DNA from: an uncultured delta proteobacterium
Lineage (GTDB): Bacteria > Desulfobacterota > RBG-13-43-22
Reading direction: 5' to 3'
DNA: 64,000 bases
Assembly (NCBI GenBank): GCA_963711835.1
Contig: CAVQFQ010000017.1
Coordinates: 224,001 to 288,000 of the forward strand
Below the pieces are notes generated by a model, which saw nothing but the letters and a program-made list of their open reading frames with translations, was not told the origin of the DNA and did not search any database. The position numbers were made by a program, and so were the translations under genes. Position 1 is the first letter of the stretch. The number at the start of each line of letters is the position of its first letter. Positions 1 through 62,171 of the stretch are shown one piece after another.

Positions 1-1025
1 CGCCGCCAGATACGGTCGGCCTGAGCCAGCCGGGATCGAAAGGGCCGCCAGCGGGAGTAATAGGGAGAAAGTAGGAGGGAGAGTAACAGCGTCCTGGGTT
101 CACCCTCTAAAACGAACCGCAAGGGCAGGAGACCGGCTTGGACCATCGGATGCTTTTGAAGGGGCTGCCCCAGGGAGATATTGTAATGACCGGCTTTTTC
201 AGTGACGGAAGGGCCGATTACCTCCTGAAAAGCCCTTGAAAGCTTGGGCGCATAGAGGTCCAGGTTGGGCGATACGACTGCGATTTGATGGAGCGGGAAA
301 TCCTGGGCAGAAACGAGAAGTTGGTCAACCAGAAAATAAATTTCCTCCTCGACATTGTCCAAGGTGAAGGCCGAAAGATGGGGCTCCTGATGCAATTGGG
401 TCATGGTTTCTACGGCCCCATACCGCTCTTTTAATACCTCCAGCAGATCCCTTTCAATCGGGGCGGGGTATTCAAAGCCTGCCAGAATGATCTTCCGGGG
501 TAAGGGTAGGGATTTCTGTTGAGCCCGTTGATGAAGAATCCCAGGGAGCCAGGCCGGGTGTAGTCTTCCGGCTTCCTTAAGCCACCGCCTAAACCTGGAG
601 AAAACCTCCTCCCTCCAGGAGATGAGCGGGCTGATTAACGTGTTCCGAAGGGGAGGGAGCTTGTCCCTGATTTTTACCCGAAAGGTTTCATCCAGGAGAC
701 GGTACAATTGCAGGTCGGCCGCCAAACCATCAGGCAGCTCGGTTCCTTGGACGGCCGATTCCCAGGTTTTCAGGATTCCAACGACCGAGGCCAGGGATTC
801 TTCCGGCCAGGAGCTGCGCCAGGTCTCTTCCAGCCAGGCATTGAGGCTCAGGACCCTGGGCGGCAGCCAGCCGGAATAACCCTTATTCATCCGGTCCAGG
901 CGGAAGGCATGGCGCAACTGTCGGGCCAGCCGGCCTCCCGAGGTCAGGATCAGGGTCTGCTCATCGGCTTCGGCGATGATCCGGGCCTGCAAGGCTTTGG
1001 TGGTAGGGGCGATCCAGTCGGCCAT
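1..1025 (-). CDS. AddB/RexB-like putative DNA repair helicase-nuclease subunit, N-terminal part (runs off window)
   Basis: Hand translation from ATG at 1025: MADWIAPTTKALQARII...LILTSGGRLARQLRHAF...PRVLSLNAWLEE...IAVVSPNLDLY...YNISLGQPL, open to the window edge; resembles the inactive-helicase N-terminus of AddB-like proteins. Not in the ORF track. Confidence 0.6.
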   Translation of the reverse strand, partial: MADWIAPTTKALQARIIAEADEQTLILTSGGRLARQLRHAFRLDRMNKGYSGWLPPRVLSLNAWLEETWRSSWPEESLASVVGILKTWESAVQGTELPDGLAADLQLYRLLDETFRVKIRDKLPPLRNTLISPLISWREEVFSRFRRWLKEAGRLHPAWLPGILHQRAQQKSLPLPRKIILAGFEYPAPIERDLLEVLKERYGAVETMTQLHQEPHLSAFTLDNVEEEIYFLVDQLLVSAQDFPLHQIAVVSPNLDLYAPKLSRAFQEVIGPSVTEKAGHYNISLGQPLQKHPMVQAGLLPLRFVLEGEPRTLLLSLLLSPYYSRWRPFRSRLAQADRIWR

Positions 1026-45816: not shown

Positions 45817-45947
45817 TTTCCGGTGGCATATGGCGAAGGGAACACACCCGTTCCCATCTCGAACAGGTAAGTTAAGCCCTCCAGCGCCGATGGTACTACC
45901 TGGGCAGTCCCGCTTGGGCGGGATGGAGAGTAGGACGCTGCCGGGAA
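45817..45947 (+). pseudogene. 5S rRNA copy 2 (degenerate; palindromic insertion at 45908-45923)
   Basis: Colinear with 40794-40913; 5'-half substitutions, CGG>GGT in helix III, TCCCGC-TTGG-GCGGGA insert. Confidence 0.85.
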
Positions 45948-45954
45948 TTTTTTT

Positions 45955-45992
45955 AAGCCCGTTTTCAGTTTCGATTGAAAACGGGCTTTTTT
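45955..45992 (+). terminator. Copy of the rrn terminator
   Basis: Hairpin identical to that at 40921. Confidence 0.88.
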
Positions 45993-46088
45993 CATTTTTA
46001 TTGACATTCCTTGTCCGCTGGATAGATCTTCTACCTGGCAGCCCAATTTCCAATTCCGGTCCTGACCAAAAGCCCAGGATATTTTTTC

Positions 46089-46117
46089 GGTCACACCAGA
46101 GGGCTTCTAAGCGTCTA
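46089..46117 (+). promoter_or_regulatory. Putative ECF-sigma autoregulatory promoter
   Basis: GGTCACA-N16-CGTCTA about 35 bp upstream of the ECF gene. Confidence 0.45.
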
Positions 46118-46151
46118 AACCAATAAGAAAGGCGAAAAGAAAGAAAAAACT

Positions 46152-46991
46152 ATGGGATCCGATCTGGAATGGCTGGTAGAGGCGGCTAAAGAAGGAGATA
46201 AGGGGGCCCTGGAAGATCTTATCTCGAAGATTCAAAATAAAGTTTATGGGTTGGCCTTACGGATGCTCTATAATCCTGCCGATGCCGAAGATGCGGCTCA
46301 GGAAATTCTATTAAAAATTATTACCCGCCTGAGCACCTTCCGAGGAGAAAGCGCCTTTACCACTTGGATGTATCGGGTAGCCGTCAACCATTTATTGACC
46401 TTGCGCCGACGTCAACCCGAACTGGAGGCGGTTTCTTTTGAAGACTATGAAAAAAGCCTGGAATTGGATGCGCCTGTAGACTGGCAGGAGTCCCGCTCCA
46501 GCGCCTTGCAGCATATCTATGTGGAAGAGATCATGATCAGTTGCCTGCAAGGACTGCTGCTCTGCCTGGATAGGGACCACCGGATGGCCTTCCTCCTGGT
46601 GGAGGTTTTCGATGTCAGCAGCGAACAGGGGGCGGCCATCCTGGAGATTACCCCCGCGGCTTTCCGCAAACGTCTTTCCAGGGCCCGGGAACGGCTGCAG
46701 GATTTTCTGAGGAGAAATTGTGCGCTGATCAATCCGGACAATCCCTGCACCTGCGAACGCTATGCGCTTTCTCAGCATTACCCCGAACAAGTGGCGGAAA
46801 AAGATCTGGTTTTTGCCAGACACCCCTGCCGGCTCAAACCAGAAAGAGGGATCGTCCAGCGTATCCAGGAGATGGATGAACTGAGCCGGATTGCCGCCCT
46901 GTATAAGCAGTACCCCGATTTGCAGGCCCCGGCTACTTTGATCGAAAATATCCGAGATTTGGTCCATTCGAATAAATATGAATTACTATAA
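46152..46991 (+). CDS. ECF sigma factor with Cys-containing C-terminal extension
   Basis: DAEDAAQE, FRGESAFTTWMYRVAVN, RKRLSRARERL, NCALINPDNPCTC. Confidence 0.9.
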   Translation: MGSDLEWLVEAAKEGDKGALEDLISKIQNKVYGLALRMLYNPADAEDAAQEILLKIITRLSTFRGESAFTTWMYRVAVNHLLTLRRRQPELEAVSFEDYEKSLELDAPVDWQESRSSALQHIYVEEIMISCLQGLLLCLDRDHRMAFLLVEVFDVSSEQGAAILEITPAAFRKRLSRARERLQDFLRRNCALINPDNPCTCERYALSQHYPEQVAEKDLVFARHPCRLKPERGIVQRIQEMDELSRIAALYKQYPDLQAPATLIENIRDLVHSNKYELL

Positions 46992-47011
46992 AAAATTGAA
47001 AGGAGCTTCCC

Positions 47012-47359
47012 ATGGAAAAGATGATTGCGGTCTGCGGAATTGAGTGCCACCAATGCCCGACCTTTTTGGCCACCCGAGAAAACGATGACCTCAAGAGGAA
47101 GGAGGTCGCGGAAATGTGGTCCAAGGATTTTAAGGCAGAAATCAAACCGGAAGACATCAATTGCGAAGGCTGCACCTCCGGTAAAGAGCGGCTTTTCAGC
47201 CATTGTCATGTTTGTGAAATAAGAAAATGCGGCCGGGAAAAACAGTTGCAGAACTGCGCCTACTGCGCTGACTATATCTGCTCCAAATTAAATGGATTGT
47301 TTCAAATGATCCCCCAGGGTAAAGTGGTTTTGGATGAAATTAGGAAAGGTCTGTCCTGA
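47012..47359 (+). CDS. DUF3795-like Cys-rich protein
   Basis: CGIECHQCP, CEGC, CEIRKC, NCAYCADYIC. Confidence 0.8.
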   Translation: MEKMIAVCGIECHQCPTFLATRENDDLKRKEVAEMWSKDFKAEIKPEDINCEGCTSGKERLFSHCHVCEIRKCGREKQLQNCAYCADYICSKLNGLFQMIPQGKVVLDEIRKGLS

Positions 47360-47388
47360 TGATACCCGGCCACGAAGGGGGAAATTAT

Positions 47389-47952
47389 ATGGCATTTCGA
47401 AAGACGATCGCTTTTGAAGCCCCTGGTTTCAGTCAGGCGCTGCTTGCTGCGGCACCGGCTTTGGATCGTGCCGAGAAGATGATGCTGTACGGACAGTTCA
47501 TCGGATCTTGGGAGGGAACAGTTATTGTCCACCGCCCGGACGGTCAACGTTTCGAGAACTCCTGCGAAGTCCATTTTGGTTGGATACTCGGGGGCCGTGC
47601 CATCCAAGACGTTTGGATCGCGCCTTCCCGCCAGACGAGGGTCCCCGGAGCGGAAGACGGGATGTATGGCACCACCTTGAGAGTCTACGATCCGAAGCAG
47701 GATCAGTGGGAGATCACCTGGATCGATCCGGTCCGGCGAAACTTCAACAGAATGCTTGGTCGCCCGGTGGGGAATGAGATAATACAGGAATATCGTGATG
47801 AAACCGGGAATATCTGCCAATGGTGTTTCACGGATATTCACCCGGATTCGTTTCATTGGATCAGCCGCGAATCCAAAGACGAACGAATAACGTGGAACCT
47901 GACCGCTGAGTTTTTTCTTCATCGACGGGATGAGGATACCAGTCGGACCTGA
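47389..47952 (+). CDS. Hypothetical protein (beta-barrel, DUF1579-like)
   Basis: YGQFIGSWEG...FGWILGGRAIQDVW...YGTTLRVYDP. Confidence 0.7.
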   Translation: MAFRKTIAFEAPGFSQALLAAAPALDRAEKMMLYGQFIGSWEGTVIVHRPDGQRFENSCEVHFGWILGGRAIQDVWIAPSRQTRVPGAEDGMYGTTLRVYDPKQDQWEITWIDPVRRNFNRMLGRPVGNEIIQEYRDETGNICQWCFTDIHPDSFHWISRESKDERITWNLTAEFFLHRRDEDTSRT

Positions 47953-47972
47953 CGCAGGAAGGAACTGTTGAT

Positions 47973-49142
47973 ATGGACCAGGCTTCATTCTGTCTTTTCG
48001 AGACACCGCTCGGTCCTTGGGGGATCGCCTGGAAAGAACCGGCCACAGCGCCCCGGGCGCCGGTGGTGACCTTTATCCAGCTTCCCGAAGCGACCAGGGC
48101 CCTGACCGAAAAACGTATCGCCGAAAGGTCCGGGGGGCGCAGGACGCGCTTAATACCGACCGGCATTGCCGGGATCATTGAAAGAATCCAGAAGCATCTG
48201 CAGGGGCATCTCCAGGATTTTCAGGACATCGCCGTAGATCTGAACAGCGCAGCACCTTTTTCCAAGCAGGTATACGAAGGGGCCCGAAAAATTCCGGCAG
48301 GGCGAACCGTAACCTACGGCGCTCTGGCGAAGGAGATCAATCGACCCATGGCTTCCCGAGCCGTAGGGCAGGCTTTGGGCAGGAATCCCATCCCCTTAAT
48401 CATCCCCTGCCATCGGATTCTGGCTTCAGGTAATAAAGCGGGGGGATTTTCCGCACCGGGCGGAGTAACCACCAAAGGCAGGCTGCTGTCCATCGAAGGG
48501 GTTACGCTCGGTGGCCCGATTACGATTAAATCGAAAAAAGACCTGCTCCGGGCGGCCTCGTTATTGAAAAAACAGGATCCGCGCCTGATCGATTGTCTGG
48601 ATAAGCCGATTGAATTCCATTTGCGACCGGGCCATTCTCCCTATGCCACCTTGATCGAAGCCGTGGTGCACCAGCAATTGTCGCCCAAAGCCGCAGCGAC
48701 GATCCTGGGCCGGGTGATGAATCTTTATCCGGATCAGAAAATTCCCAATCCCGCTGAGTTGCTGAAGACCAAAGATGAACTCTTAAGGAAGGAGGGCTTG
48801 TCCCAGGCGAAAATCAAAGCGGTAAAAGATATTGCCCTAAAGACAGTGGAGGGGACCGTACCTTCAGCAAAAGAGATCGTTAAGCTCGGCAATGAAGAGA
48901 TCATCAAAAGGCTCACTTCCATATATGGGGTAGGTCTCTGGACCGTAGAGATGATGCTGATCTTCAACCTGGGGCGTCAGGATGTCCTCCCAGTGGATGA
49001 TTACGCCCTTAGAAAGAGTATATCGGGAGTATTCGGCATGAAGGAAGTTCCCACGCCGAAACAAGTGGCCGCCCTGGGCGAGTTATGGCGGCCCTATCGC
49101 ACAGCGGCAGCGTTGTATCTCTGGAACAGCATCAATTCGTGA
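47973..49142 (+). CDS. Fusion of O6-methylguanine-DNA methyltransferase (Ogt) and AlkA-type 3-methyladenine glycosylase
   Basis: IPAGRTVTYG, RAVGQAL, IIPCHR; then VVHQQLS..AA.TI, HhH GVGLWTVEM, LPVDD, WRPYRTAA. Confidence 0.9.
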   Translation: MDQASFCLFETPLGPWGIAWKEPATAPRAPVVTFIQLPEATRALTEKRIAERSGGRRTRLIPTGIAGIIERIQKHLQGHLQDFQDIAVDLNSAAPFSKQVYEGARKIPAGRTVTYGALAKEINRPMASRAVGQALGRNPIPLIIPCHRILASGNKAGGFSAPGGVTTKGRLLSIEGVTLGGPITIKSKKDLLRAASLLKKQDPRLIDCLDKPIEFHLRPGHSPYATLIEAVVHQQLSPKAAATILGRVMNLYPDQKIPNPAELLKTKDELLRKEGLSQAKIKAVKDIALKTVEGTVPSAKEIVKLGNEEIIKRLTSIYGVGLWTVEMMLIFNLGRQDVLPVDDYALRKSISGVFGMKEVPTPKQVAALGELWRPYRTAAALYLWNSINS

Positions 49143-49191
49143 TTCCGAATCCAACGGAAAATTAATGGGGACGGTTCTCTTTATTTTCATT

Positions 49192-49311
49192 TTACTGGTG
49201 GCGATAGCGAAGGGGCCACACCCGTTCCCATCCCGAAAAGGTCAGTTAAGCCCTTCAGCGCCGATGGTACTACCTGGGCAGCTGGGTGGGAGAGTAGGAC
49301 GCTGCCGGGAA
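49192..49311 (+). pseudogene. 5S rRNA copy 3 (variant 5' half, 3' half identical to the operon copy)
   Basis: GGTGGCGATAGCGAAGGGG...CCGAAAAGGTCAGTTAAGC..., identical to copy 1 from GTTAAGCC onward. Confidence 0.85.
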
Positions 49312-49318
49312 TTTTTTT

Positions 49319-49356
49319 AAGCCCGTTTTCAGTTTCGATTGAAAACGGGCTTTTTT
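49319..49356 (+). terminator. Copy of the rrn terminator
   Basis: Hairpin identical to that at 40921. Confidence 0.88.
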
Positions 49357-49455: not shown

Positions 49456-49860
49456 TTACAGGAACTTTACCATTTTGAGCCCCCTCACTTTTTCAAATAA
49501 CTTCTTGTCGAAGGTGACAAAATCACATCCTAATTTTTTCGCCAATTCAATATAAGAGGCATCATACAGAGTTATCTGAAATCTTCTGGATAAGTTCAGG
49601 CCGCTTAAGAATTCATCCCAGCCCAGGCTGAAGACCTCCAAATCAAAGTTCCATAACAAGGAAAAAGCCTCGGAAGCGGTTTCGTTACCGAGGGATGTTT
49701 TCGTGGCCAGAACATTGCCTATTTCATAAAAAAACAATTCGGGAACGGCAATAACTTCCTCACCCGATATATGCCTGTCCCGATATCGGACGGCCCGATC
49801 CTCTCCTTCTTCGTCCGTGAAAATCCACTTTAGGGCTATTGAAGCGTCAAGAACGATCAT
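49456..49860 (-). CDS. VapC PIN-domain toxin
   Basis: MIVLDASIALKW, FYEIGNVL, ITLYDASYIELA, FVTFDKKL. Confidence 0.9.
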   Translation of the reverse strand: MIVLDASIALKWIFTDEEGEDRAVRYRDRHISGEEVIAVPELFFYEIGNVLATKTSLGNETASEAFSLLWNFDLEVFSLGWDEFLSGLNLSRRFQITLYDASYIELAKKLGCDFVTFDKKLFEKVRGLKMVKFL

Positions 49861-50134
49861 GACCGTTCCGGATATCCCTGACCGCCTGAACAGTATCAAT
49901 GGGTCTGGTTTCCAATTGATGGTGCTTTTTCCACTCATCCATCCGTACGGATATCTTTTTAAGACGCCCTTCTCTGTTTTTTCTTAATACTTTTTCCTCG
50001 AAATCTTCAACAGAAATGATAACCGCCATGGGTTTATTCGCCCGGGAGATTACTACCGGTTCTTTCTGTTGCGAAACCTCGTTTAAAACGGTTCCCAGTT
50101 TCTTCCTCAAATCAAGGGCCGAGATGGTTTTCAT
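49847..50134 (-). CDS. Phd/YefM family antitoxin
   Basis: MKTISALDLRKKLGTVLNEV...VVISRANKPMAVIISVEDF. Confidence 0.9.
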   Translation of the reverse strand: MKTISALDLRKKLGTVLNEVSQQKEPVVISRANKPMAVIISVEDFEEKVLRKNREGRLKKISVRMDEWKKHHQLETRPIDTVQAVRDIRNGHDRS

Positions 50135-50233: not shown

Positions 50234-50308
50234 TGTCTATTCCGGACCAAAGTGACCACCGATTCCGGCGGGAAACTGACCAGTAATTTCAGTGGTCCGG
50301 AATAGACA
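50234..50308. mobile_element. 75-bp internally deleted IS21-family-like element
   Basis: TG...CA ends, perfect 16-bp IR TGTCTATTCCGGACCA, subterminal repeats (ATTCCGG..AAAGTGACCA / ATTCCGG..AAACTGACCA); no transposase. Confidence 0.75.
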
Positions 50309-50312
50309 GGTT

Positions 50313-50465
50313 ATGGGTTTGGATCATTTTCAACTTGAAAACCGAAGTAGGGTCCTCCATCAGGCGATTGCCGAACGATTGAAAAGGGATCCGGGGCTGT
50401 TGAATGTGGCCAAAGAAACTTTACATAGGATGCTGCCGGGATTTTTTTGGCCCTATTGCGAATGA
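50313..50465 (+). pseudogene. Truncated hypothetical gene interrupted by a 5S 3'-end remnant
   Basis: MGLDHFQLENRSRVLHQAIAERLKRDPGLLNVAKETLHR, then reads into TAGGATGCTGCCGGG. Confidence 0.5.
50426..50453 (+). repeat. Remnant of the 5S rRNA 3' end and terminator start (copy 4)
   Basis: TAGGATGCTGCCGGGATTTTTTTGGCCC versus TAGGACGCTGCCGGGAATTTTTTTAAGCCC; followed by GGGGCCTTTTTTT. Confidence 0.65.
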
Positions 50466-50588
50466 GCTGGGAAGGGGCCTTTTTTTATGACTACCCCCGG
50501 CCCTGGACAACCTGGAACTAATGATTTAACTTTATCAAATAAAGACAGGGTTAAGGTCTGAACCGTAAAAAGGAAGGAGACTCAAGGT

Positions 50589-61127: not shown

Positions 61128-61203
61128 GAGTTTGTCATAGTTACCTGATTTTTGAGCACTCCATTCATAGAGGGCTTCGGGGGTCTTGATTTCAGGGCTG
61201 TCC
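61128..61203 (+). repeat. Imperfect direct repeat of 61449-61528, including one arm of the MITE-like IR
   Basis: GAGTTTGTC..TGATTTTT..CACTCCAT.CATAGAGGGCTTCGGGGGTCTTGATTTCA.GG.TGTCC in both. Confidence 0.7.
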
Positions 61204-61494
61204 AATCAATCCGCCTGGACGGACGGAATTCAAAAGTCGGACGGAAAAACAGTCCCCAAATATACCAGAAGACCTCTTTGAAGGACAGGATAAAGGATTA
61301 AGCCCCAGCGGGAAAATTTTTCAGGGCCGGCGATACGGTTCGATTCTCCGGGTAAGGGAAAGGGACCCTGCCGGGATAGTTATTTATCCATGACAGAAAT
61401 TGCCCGTCTTTGATATACTGGTGGAAAACGGTCCATCTCTCACTCTTGGAGTTTGTCCCAACTTTACGTGATTTTTAAACACTCCATATCATAG

Positions 61495-61712
61495 AGGGCT
61501 TCGGGGGTCTTGATTTCAAGGATTGTCCGCCAAAACGCCGGCAGTTTGAACCCGGGCAGGAAGTTTATAATGGGGTTTAGAAACAGGCCAACACCAAAGT
61601 GATTTGTCGTCTTGGGTGAATGCCCGGCTCCCAACCAACTTAGAAATTCGGGCCGGGTTGGGGCTGCGGATTACCTTTCGGACAACCTTGAAATCAAGAC
61701 CCCCGAAGCCCT
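61495..61712. mobile_element. ~218-bp MITE-like element with ~34-bp terminal IRs (copy B)
   Basis: AGGGCTTCGGGGGTCTTGATTTCAAGGATTGTCCG ... CGGACAACCTTGAAATCAAGACCCCCGAAGCCCT. Confidence 0.7.
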
Positions 61713-61799
61713 TTCGGTTTGAGAATGACGTAACTTTGGGACTATCTCTGCTCTCGTGTCCAACAGTGATGGTTCAGGCAGATTTTCTTCCGACAAAAA

Positions 61800-62171
61800 A
61801 TGAAACTTGACCTCGAAGAATTTGAAAAGCTGGTTTCCCGGGCTCTCGTAGAGATCCCCCCGGTTTTTCTGGAAAAATTGGAGAACCTGGAAATAATAGT
61901 CGAGGAAGAACCTTCTTCGGAGGTTTTGGAAAGCCTGGGATTGAATCAGGGGGAACTCCTTTTTGGACTATACCAAGGGGTCCCGAGGCCCGATAAAAGC
62001 TTCTTTCAAGTCACCCTCCTGCCGGATCGGATTACCCTCTTTCGCCTCCCCCTTCTAAAGGCCTGCCGTACTAAAAAGGAAATCATGGATCAGATCGGAA
62101 AAACCGTGGTCCATGAAATAGCCCATTATTTCGGATTTTCGGAGCAGGAGATCCGGAAGCTGGGCTATTGA
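61800..62171 (+). CDS. Zincin-like metallopeptidase (DUF1025 type)
   Basis: LFGLYQGVP, PDRITLFR, TVVHEIAHYFG (HExxH). Confidence 0.88.
   Translation: MKLDLEEFEKLVSRALVEIPPVFLEKLENLEIIVEEEPSSEVLESLGLNQGELLFGLYQGVPRPDKSFFQVTLLPDRITLFRLPLLKACRTKKEIMDQIGKTVVHEIAHYFGFSEQEIRKLGY

What the first reader, a model, noticed from the sequence alone, without database searches (positions are those of the whole stretch)
45817..49311. Extra 5S copies share the same helix-III-breaking change and have a diverged 5' half
Seen: copy 1 CCCGAACACGGAAGTT, copy 2 CTCGAACAGGTAAGTT, copy 3 CCCGAAAAGGTCAGTT. Both extra copies carry CGG>GGT, which disrupts CCGU/ACGG pairing. Copy 3 begins GGTGGCGATAGCG rather than GGTGGCAATGGCG but is identical to copy 1 from GTTAAGCC through the terminator. 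Inference: the 5' halves come from a common non-ribosomal donor lineage (attP-like arm), the crossover lies near GTTAAGCC, and the copies act as recombination sites rather than rRNAs.
Basis: partly seen in the sequence, partly recalled or inferred. Interest (0 to 1): 0.7.

Follow-up and report, generated by a model that had tools for sequence, protein, structure and literature searches.

The report
Decayed 5S copies mark gene insertions
Behind the only ribosomal RNA operon of an uncultured sediment bacterium, small gene blocks are separated by damaged copies of the 5S rRNA gene and its terminator, a pattern shared across its family, which likely records repeated gene insertion at this conserved gene by ordinary homologous recombination rather than by a dedicated integrase.

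Summary
Copies 2 and 3 (65 and 78 bits, versus 100 for the operon copy) both carry CGG>GGT. Copy 3 matches copy 1 exactly over 113 bp, terminator included. A weak fourth 3' remnant lies at 50426. This is a family trait: 13 of 15 family genomes with any 5S match hold displaced copies or fragments, and 4 of 96 genomes from other families show it too. Flanks reassort across the copies, and one relative shows an empty site where another carries a 4.7-kb insert closed by a 5S 3' fragment. The copies look like pseudogenes (85 of 414 stem cells broken versus 0 of 184) and likely serve as recombination arms. Breakpoints are scattered, no integrase is adjacent, and the cargo also occurs without 5S flanks. 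GGT is the only change copies 2 and 3 share, and it also arose in an in-operon Heliobacterium 5S gene, so no common non-ribosomal donor is needed. Best reading: an integrase-free additive island anchored on 5S, like tRNA-fragment islands. The scan noted a similar 16S-tail array in another genome. Unexplained: helix III is a mutation hotspot in the copies.

The parts
35327..40657 (+). 16S, tRNA-Ile, tRNA-Ala, 23S: the only rRNA operon in the assembly (context and conserved anchor)
40796..40912 (+). c1, the operon 5S rRNA gene (100.4 bits)
40921..40954 (+). intrinsic-terminator-like hairpin (15 pairs), identical after c1, c2 and c3
40931..45640 (-). cargo block 1: FmdE, molybdopterin oxidoreductase, 4Fe-4S protein, HxlR regulator
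   Evidence: also in relatives, with and without 5S flanks
45705..45818 (+). leader A: conserved non-coding stretch before many displaced copies in the family (partly deleted here); unlike the 23S-5S spacer
45819..45946 (+). c2, degenerate 5S copy (65.3 bits): GGT at 45866-45868, mini-hairpin at 45908-45923
45955..45988 (+). terminator copy 2 (inside the 68-bp tract identical to c1)
46152..49142 (+). cargo block 2: ECF sigma factor, DUF3795, protein without Pfam match, Ogt-AlkA-like alkylation-repair fusion
49165..49193 (+). leader B, shared with a displaced copy in G013; begins with a motif like the ends of this genome's Y1 (TIRYT-type) elements
49194..49310 (+). c3, degenerate 5S copy (77.6 bits): GGT at 49240-49242; identical to c1 from 49244 to 49356
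49319..49352 (+). terminator copy 3
49456..50134 (-). cargo block 3: PIN toxin and Phd/YefM antitoxin pair
50426..50484 (+). c4, probable short remnant of the 5S 3' end and terminator (weak, E 0.025 genome-wide)
61800..62171 (+). Zincin_1 gene: the gene that directly follows the 5S terminator in G012; likely far border of the 21-kb variable region

Best explanation
The two extra copies are damaged duplicates of the 5S gene plus terminator that border accessory gene blocks, and they likely arose, and keep being renewed, by RecA-type homologous recombination that inserts or swaps gene blocks behind the single rRNA operon without an integrase of their own. Shown: the repeats, their decay, long tracts identical to the host gene, and reassorted flanks between genomes. 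Inferred: incoming DNA from a relative pairs through the conserved rRNA end. If its far end also carries a 5S piece, or joins inside the host 5S, the block is added and part of the host 5S with its terminator is pushed downstream; this gives copy 3 (variant 5' half, 113 bp of host sequence). A block bounded by two such copies would then excise, re-insert or swap by recombination anywhere in the shared tracts, and the same recombination or gene conversion would keep 3' parts host-like. The CGG>GGT change is likely a recurrent hairpin-templated mutation that then spreads with the copies, not the mark of one donor.
For: Pseudogene state: 85 of 414 stem cells are broken in 18 displaced copies versus 0 of 184 in 8 operon copies. 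Family-wide: 13 of 15 family genomes with any 5S match have displaced pieces; 44 pieces were catalogued, 2 of them from metagenome contigs. Empty versus filled site: in G012 the 5S terminator is followed by the zincin gene; in G019 the same gene (89.7% over 764 nt) follows a 4.7-kb insert closed by a 5S 3' fragment. G011 versus G013 shows the same with a 1.3-kb HigBA insert. Flank reassortment: the FmdE flank follows an operon 5S in G000 and G001, a degenerate copy in G008 and a fragment in G017; the HxlR-leader flank precedes 5S pieces in 4 genomes with 4 different right flanks. The order of the HxlR and thiolase blocks is reversed between G008 and G014. Host-like 3' parts: beyond position 52, c2 and c3 match their own operon copy better than 7 other operon copies. 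Breakpoints are scattered. No recombinase is in the window blocks or on the array contigs of 4 outside genomes. recA is present and comEC is in 18 of 20 relatives. GGT recurs in Heliobacterium mobile and G070, and it extends an inverted repeat to 7 pairs, a level reached by 24 of 486 comparable double changes.
Against: No excised circle, empty site of this strain or crossover was observed; only contigs were available. The cargo is not tied to 5S: genes of block 1 occur with no 5S piece nearby in 9 of 14 relative loci scanned and genes of block 2 in 6 of 7 (block 1's G001 locus was not in that scan). The clusters in G008 and G020 lie 49-61 kb from the operon copy on the opposite strand, and some pieces are on other contigs. 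comEC was not found in G000 itself (89% complete) and DprA only below its cut-off. Identical tracts of 68-113 bp are short for efficient RecA recombination (recalled). 71 of 221 integrase matches in the family were not listed. Own-host similarity is weak or tied in several relatives' copies. The GGT hairpin is not unusually stable as DNA. Hairpin templating does not explain the other changes at C47.
Confidence: 0.55

Rival explanations
1. Passive scars. The 5S gene plus terminator duplicated locally (as 5S pseudogenes do in Peptococcaceae and Pseudoalteromonas), unrelated mobile genes later landed between the copies, and the copies persist as terminators and through occasional gene conversion, with no real part in moving genes.
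For: Cargo mostly occurs without 5S flanks. Terminator stems mostly still fold in displaced copies, and c1's terminator overlaps the convergent FmdE end. 5S remnants downstream of operons are in print (PMC7812874).
Against: Left and right flanks reassort across the 5S pieces between genomes and genera, and a relative's operon-adjacent flank sits behind a displaced 3' fragment, which needs recombination within or at the 5S segments.
Confidence: 0.2
2. Site-specific system. A recombinase encoded elsewhere (tyrosine recombinase, integron-type integrase or TIRYT-type Y1 enzyme) recognises the 5S copies as attachment sites. Loop C offers 4-bp inverted arms around a 7-nt spacer, GGT lengthens those arms, and GTTAAGC fits the integron core consensus GTTRRRY (recalled).
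For: Positions 17-44 are unusually conserved in displaced copies (5.6% versus 30.6% changed at 45-52). 6 of 15 3' pieces start at positions 45-51 and 4 of 7 5' pieces end at 36-50. G000 has 7 integrase and 12 Y1 matches, and c3's leader starts with a TIR-like motif.
Against: Four of the six early starts belong to one orthologous junction, and the remaining breakpoints are spread out. If the crossover were in loop C, downstream copies should have the host sequence at 47-49, but they carry the variant. TIR-like motifs precede only 7 of 44 pieces against a 5-11% background. No enzyme gene is linked to the arrays.
Confidence: 0.15
3. Functional variant RNAs. The copies are transcribed from cargo or leader promoters and act as alternative 5S rRNAs, as decoys for uL5/uL18, or as stable 5' or 3' modules.
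For: Both copies are above the Rfam gathering score. An in-operon H. mobile gene has the same variant at 96.7 bits. Some relatives' copies keep helix III and only add the helix IV hairpin, like published expansion segments. Leader A is conserved.
Against: One stem cell in five is broken, with almost no compensatory change. Many pieces are truncated or split. The helix IV hairpin is a genome-wide mini-repeat, 77 matches versus 2 in a shuffle. No promoter-like site lies before c2 or c3 (consensus scan only).
Confidence: 0.06
4. Assembly artefact: repeats or reads from co-occurring organisms were joined or homogenised, creating the layout or the identical tracts.
For: The bin has 6.4% contamination. 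G001:C52 looks chimeric and breaks at c2. The identical tracts were not bridged by independent contigs.
Against: Independent contigs bridge both left junctions with the variant sequence. Homologous junctions occur in 3-4 other genomes.
Confidence: 0.04

Closest known systems
Additive flexible genomic islands at tRNA genes with tRNA-fragment direct repeats ('Ca. Actinomarinales' fGI1, PMC7771536; Alteromonas, PMC5217437; passages read)
   Same: Small gene blocks accumulate at a single-copy RNA gene; a duplicated part of that gene closes the insert; blocks move between genera.
   Different: The anchor here is the 5S rRNA gene. Repeats run from short 3' tails to full-length copies with their own leader, and fragment ends vary. 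These papers ascribe such islands largely to site-directed recombination, for which no enzyme is linked here.
5S rRNA pseudogenes and expansion-segment 5S genes of Peptococcaceae and Pseudoalteromonas (Stepanov and Fox 2021, PMC7812874; Results section read in full)
   Same: Truncated or insertion-bearing 5S remnants downstream of the normal gene, sometimes multiple, next to terminators; suggested as homologous recombination donors.
   Different: The Results text describes no gene cargo between the remnants and lists no member of this lineage; supplements were not read. Here kilobase cargo blocks separate the copies and flanks reassort.
SAR11 HVR2, flanked by the sole 23S and 5S genes (PMC2217521, PMC4033161; passages read)
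   Same: rRNA genes proposed as homologous-recombination anchors for an accessory region.
   Different: HVR2 is a replacement island in a split operon with one 5S gene; here the operon is intact and 5S pieces multiply.
5S-rDNA-targeting fungal Starships (PMC11162782; passages read)
   Same: Cargo inserted at 5S genes, several internal positions used.
   Different: Eukaryotic, carry their own tyrosine recombinase, leave 6-16 bp direct repeats and disrupt one of many 5S genes; here the single gene stays intact and the repeats are 60-170 bp.
Homology-facilitated illegitimate recombination (PMC3240628, search listing and start of abstract only) and quasi-palindrome template-switch mutation (PMC7202029, listing and start of abstract only)
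   Same: Known processes that would give variable far-end joints and a one-step CGG>GGT change.
   Different: Neither was tested here; both are inferred.

Membership tests
Functional 5S rRNA (RF00001) | Score above the gathering threshold | tested here: met
   65.3 and 77.6 versus 38 bits, but 23-35 bits below c1
Functional 5S rRNA (RF00001) | Helices I-III intact or compensated | tested here: not met
   helix III 2 of 4 pairs in c2 and c3; 85 of 414 cells broken in 18 displaced copies
Functional 5S rRNA (RF00001) | Transcribed, processed and present in 50S subunits | not testable with these tools
   no RNA holder listed
Integrase-driven island at an RNA gene (attL/attR) | Intact gene at one end, displaced 3' part at the other; empty site in a relative | tested here: met
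   G012 versus G019, G011 versus G013; c1 to c3 and c4 in the window
Integrase-driven island at an RNA gene (attL/attR) | Integrase gene next to the site | tested here: not met
   none in the window blocks, among 54 cargo proteins scanned (an IstB fragment and a Mu transposase apart) or on the 5 outside array contigs; 150 of 221 family matches seen, the nearest 18 kb from a G016 cluster
Integrase-driven island at an RNA gene (attL/attR) | One fixed crossover position | tested here: not met
   3' pieces start at profile positions 45-138, 5' pieces end at 36-92; later decay could blur a fixed point
Additive flexible genomic island | Same locus, variable number of small blocks among relatives, blocks shared across genera | tested here: met
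Integron cassette array | attC sites (RYYYAAC...GTTRRRY hairpins; consensus recalled) after single promoterless ORFs, and IntI | tested here: not met
   the blocks are multi-gene, in both orientations and with own regulators; by inspection the 5S holds GTTAAGC without a matching inverse core; no integrase adjacent; no attC model was run
TIRYT/TIRtron non-autonomous element (PMC3733652, PMC6006769; passages and one section read) | Paired terminal inverted repeats with a GGGGWSAS-like motif at both ends | tested here: inconclusive
   one TIR-like motif before c3, no partner seen after it; 7 of 44 pieces versus 5-11% background
RecA-dependent repeat-bounded cassette | Movement depends on recA and on repeat identity | not testable with these tools
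   recA present; needs experiment

The most novel reading that the evidence does not exclude
Sediment Desulfobacterota run an integrase-free gene-capture platform on their single 5S rRNA gene. Decayed 5S-plus-terminator copies are kept as self-targeting homology arms that let toxin-antitoxin and metabolic blocks insert behind the operon of any relative, across genera and families. Helix III is selectively knocked out in the copies (21 of 25 differ from all operon genes in positions 42-49, 17 distinct forms, against 5-9 of 25 in windows covering 20-45) so that they stay good recombination substrates but cannot act as rRNA, or escape a 5S-cutting enzyme.
Probability: 0.2. Interest if true: 0.8.

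Novelty: new variant of a known kind. Interest (0 to 1): 0.55.

Why it matters
Bacterial islands are known to pile up at tRNA and tmRNA genes, and 5S targeting is known from fungal Starships. My literature searches (open-access library only) found no bacterial cargo array punctuated by 5S rRNA copies. If the reading holds, the end of the rRNA operon is a cross-genus landing pad that needs no integrase and that island finders keyed to integrases and tRNAs would miss. It also warns that 5S counts and annotations in these genomes include pseudogenes above the Rfam threshold. The copies give a natural read-out of how an rRNA gene mutates when freed from selection: a helix III hotspot, repeated mini-hairpin insertion in helix IV, and the same multi-base change in two phyla.

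Tried and rejected
Viral contigs: 0 matches to the GGT variant pattern, so no phage-borne attP-like copy was found. GTDB pattern scan: 10 loci, of which 3 were family copies, 1 H. mobile, 1 an ordinary 5S with a different 5' arm, and 5 not 5S. Ribosomal donor for c3's 5' end: no match with up to 1 mismatch in 400 other genomes of the phylum, so the donor is unidentified. Leader A as the rRNA spacer of another lineage: the order holds only the same 21 genomes and a leader query matched 2 of them; a leader-like stretch occurs without 5S before a HigBA pair in G017. TIRYT involvement: motif enrichment weak. G16>C (7 of 25 copies) as a second hairpin-templated change: 5 pairs, reached by 67 of 168 single changes, so not counted as evidence. 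Expression: no RNA holder listed; no evidence either way. Read mapping gave only short contigs of relatives and no credible excision joint; the one 45897-49287 joint has 14 foreign letters and a 23-letter side. G001:C52 as proof of cross-genus transfer: its tyrS is 90% like G004 while its rRNA is like G000 and G012, so it may be a chimeric contig and was not used as key evidence. G147 and G128 extra hits are operon copies cut at contig ends, and G007's second hit is a very divergent operon (71-78%); all three were dropped before counting. A possible fifth remnant at 61320-61432 has E 0.95 and was not counted. One search had helix III pairs indexed one base off; one search is the corrected count. 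The structure-pair tool was not run successfully, so its shuffle controls are missing. No tree was built, because the copies are short and recombinant.
Full report
Observation. The window holds one rRNA operon (16S 35327-36885, 23S 37492-40657, 5S c1 40796-40912) and two further 5S matches on the same strand, c2 45819-45946 and c3 49194-49310, at 100.4, 65.3 and 77.6 bits. This is the only operon in the 3.9-Mb, 89% complete assembly. Each copy is followed by the same 15-pair terminator. c3 equals c1 over 113 bp and c2 equals c1 over 68 bp. c2 also has a mini-hairpin in helix IV. A weak fourth remnant, 3' end plus terminator, lies at 50426-50484. Contigs from two independent runs bridge the left junctions of c2 and c3.

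What lies between. Block 1 encodes FmdE, a molybdopterin oxidoreductase, a 4Fe-4S protein and HxlR. Block 2 encodes an ECF sigma factor, DUF3795, an unknown protein and an Ogt-AlkA fusion. Block 3 is a PIN/Phd pair. None of the 13 proteins scanned is a recombinase. GC content is like the genome. The zincin gene that directly follows the 5S terminator in relative G012 lies 21 kb downstream here.

It is a family trait. Of 21 family genomes, 15 have a 5S match and 13 of those have displaced copies or fragments; G004 and G007 have none detected. Titled records that match two of these genomes read 'uncultured Thermodesulfobacteriota' and 'delta proteobacterium'. G014 has four copies about 4 kb apart and G013 has six pieces in 16 kb. 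Outside the family, 4 of 96 genomes with a match have weak extra hits that proved real (G071, G105, G164, G070); this is a lower bound because only 21 candidates per genome were scored. In G071, G105 and G164 the layout is the same: operon 5S, small genes (toxin-antitoxin pairs in G071 and G164, a NucS-like gene in G105), then a 5S piece. The cargo scanned in relatives includes many toxin-antitoxin modules and small metabolic operons (54 selected proteins).

The copies are decayed. In 18 displaced copies 85 of 414 cells in helices I-III are unpaired, against 0 of 184 in 8 operon genes, with almost no double changes (valid for helices I and II). The helix IV insert is a genome-wide mini-hairpin, 77 matches versus 2 in a shuffle. 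Other hairpins sit at the same place in G071. Terminator stems mostly persist.

Evidence of exchange at the 5S segments. I clustered 700-nt flanks of 58 pieces (14 operon, 44 displaced). The same right flank follows an operon gene in one genome and a displaced piece in another in four cases: the FmdE flank, G011/G013, G012/G019, and G003 versus a metagenome contig. G012 is an empty site, and G019 has 4.7 kb inserted and closed by a 65-nt 3' fragment at 96.9% identity. The HxlR-leader junction of c2 recurs in G008, G014 and G016 with a different right flank each time. Beyond position 52, c2 and c3 match their own host gene best among 8 operon genes; in other genomes this holds weakly or as ties. 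Against an obligatory cassette system: genes of block 1 lack nearby 5S pieces in 9 of 14 relative loci scanned and genes of block 2 in 6 of 7, and the G008 and G020 clusters lie 49-61 kb away on the opposite strand.

No fixed crossover, no linked enzyme. The 15 3' pieces start at profile positions 45, 45, 45, 47, 51, 51, 58, 58, 66, 85, 94, 96, 102, 113 and 138. The 7 5' pieces end at 36, 38, 41, 50, 66, 77 and 92 (the profile includes the hairpin insert, so numbers above 89 run about 11 ahead of 5S numbering). Four early starts are one orthologous junction. No tyrosine recombinase was listed beside any array (150 of 221 family matches shown; all 41 for five outside genomes). G000 has about nine TIRYT-type Y1 elements with GGGGAC/GGGGTC ends (family described in PMC3733652 and PMC6006769). 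c3's leader starts with such a motif, but only 7 of 44 pieces have one, against 5-11% background. recA is present. comEC is in 18 of 20 relatives but was not found in G000.

The GGT change. It is the only change shared by c2 and c3. G47 is seen in 13 and T49 in 11 of 25 displaced copies, so it is common in the family, but the G014 copy at c2's orthologous junction lacks it. It also occurs in 1 of 12 full-length 5S genes of Heliobacterium mobile, right after a 16S gene, and on the different 5S backbone of G070. It makes the strand complementary to the upstream ACC, giving a register-shifted hairpin of 7 pairs; 24 of 486 comparable double changes do as well. A one-step template switch at a quasi-palindrome is therefore a likely origin (inference; mechanism from PMC7202029 abstract and recall). 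c3's other 5' letters are states found in working 5S genes of the phylum, and no exact donor was found in 400 genomes. A common non-ribosomal donor is thus not needed.

Unexplained. Positions 17-44 are only 5.6% changed and positions 45-52 are 30.6% changed. In the window 42-49, 21 of 25 copies differ from every operon gene, in 17 distinct forms, and C47 goes to G, A or T. Copies are related, so these are not independent events, and detection favours a conserved core; still, hairpin templating covers only the GGT type. Selection against a working helix III, or a cutting enzyme, remains possible. The conserved 105-nt leader A has no known role.

Mechanism. Most likely (0.55), homologous recombination anchored in the conserved operon end adds gene blocks and displaces or duplicates 5S plus terminator, and the copies then act as short homology arms and conversion partners. 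Passive scars (0.2), a recombinase in trans (0.15), functional variant RNA (0.06) and assembly artefact (0.04) are the rivals. Movement itself was not observed.

Comparison. It works like additive islands marked by tRNA-fragment repeats (PMC7771536, PMC5217437), and it joins that picture to the 5S pseudogenes of Stepanov and Fox (PMC7812874) and to rRNA-anchored recombination in SAR11 (PMC2217521). It fails the integrase and fixed-crossover tests for a classical island. Five searches of the open-access library for 5S-anchored or tandem bacterial islands found no such array; subscription papers and all supplements were not seen. Verdict: a real, family-wide new variant of a known kind; interest 0.55.

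Noticed in passing
window 41645-43781 (-): The molybdopterin oxidoreductase is 664 aa here but 741-747 aa in relatives; its C-terminal part continues in another frame, so there is a frameshift or a sequencing indel.
   Followed up: no
window 50237-50310: A 74-nt element with inverted ends and no gene, resembling an IS21-type end pair (label recalled); variant letters at this place appear in three runs.
   Followed up: no
window about 38760-38920: The 23S gene carries a long insertion, variable among relatives, that contains a small GC hairpin like the genome's mini-repeats.
   Followed up: no
G000:C17:619269-619301: Lone 33-nt internal 5S fragment (E 2.7e-05) 345 kb from the operon, with relatives' letters rather than the host's.
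   Followed up: partly
whole genome G000: 77 copies of one mini-hairpin (2 in a shuffle) sit inside several unrelated short repeat families; about nine TIRYT-type Y1 elements, one 97.7% identical to DNA in G020.
   Followed up: partly
L045 (G001:C52): Identity to the window rises from 72% (tyrS) through 98% (rRNA) to 99.9-100% (HxlR and leader), and the contig ends at copy 2: very recent transfer or a chimeric contig.
   Followed up: partly
L072 286-402 (Heliobacterium mobile): One of 12 full-length 5S genes has the GGTCAG variant and lies directly after 16S; a cultured system for testing whether the variant works.
   Followed up: partly
L033 6500-11200 (G019): A Mu-like element sits just beyond the 5S island, between the zincin gene and the flank seen in G012.
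   Followed up: no
L042 8118-8623 (G016): Two 5S pieces back to back on opposite strands, 330 nt apart.
   Followed up: no
window 61150-61720: A cluster of short dispersed repeats before the zincin gene, with a non-significant 5S-like stretch at 61320-61432 (E 0.95).
   Followed up: partly
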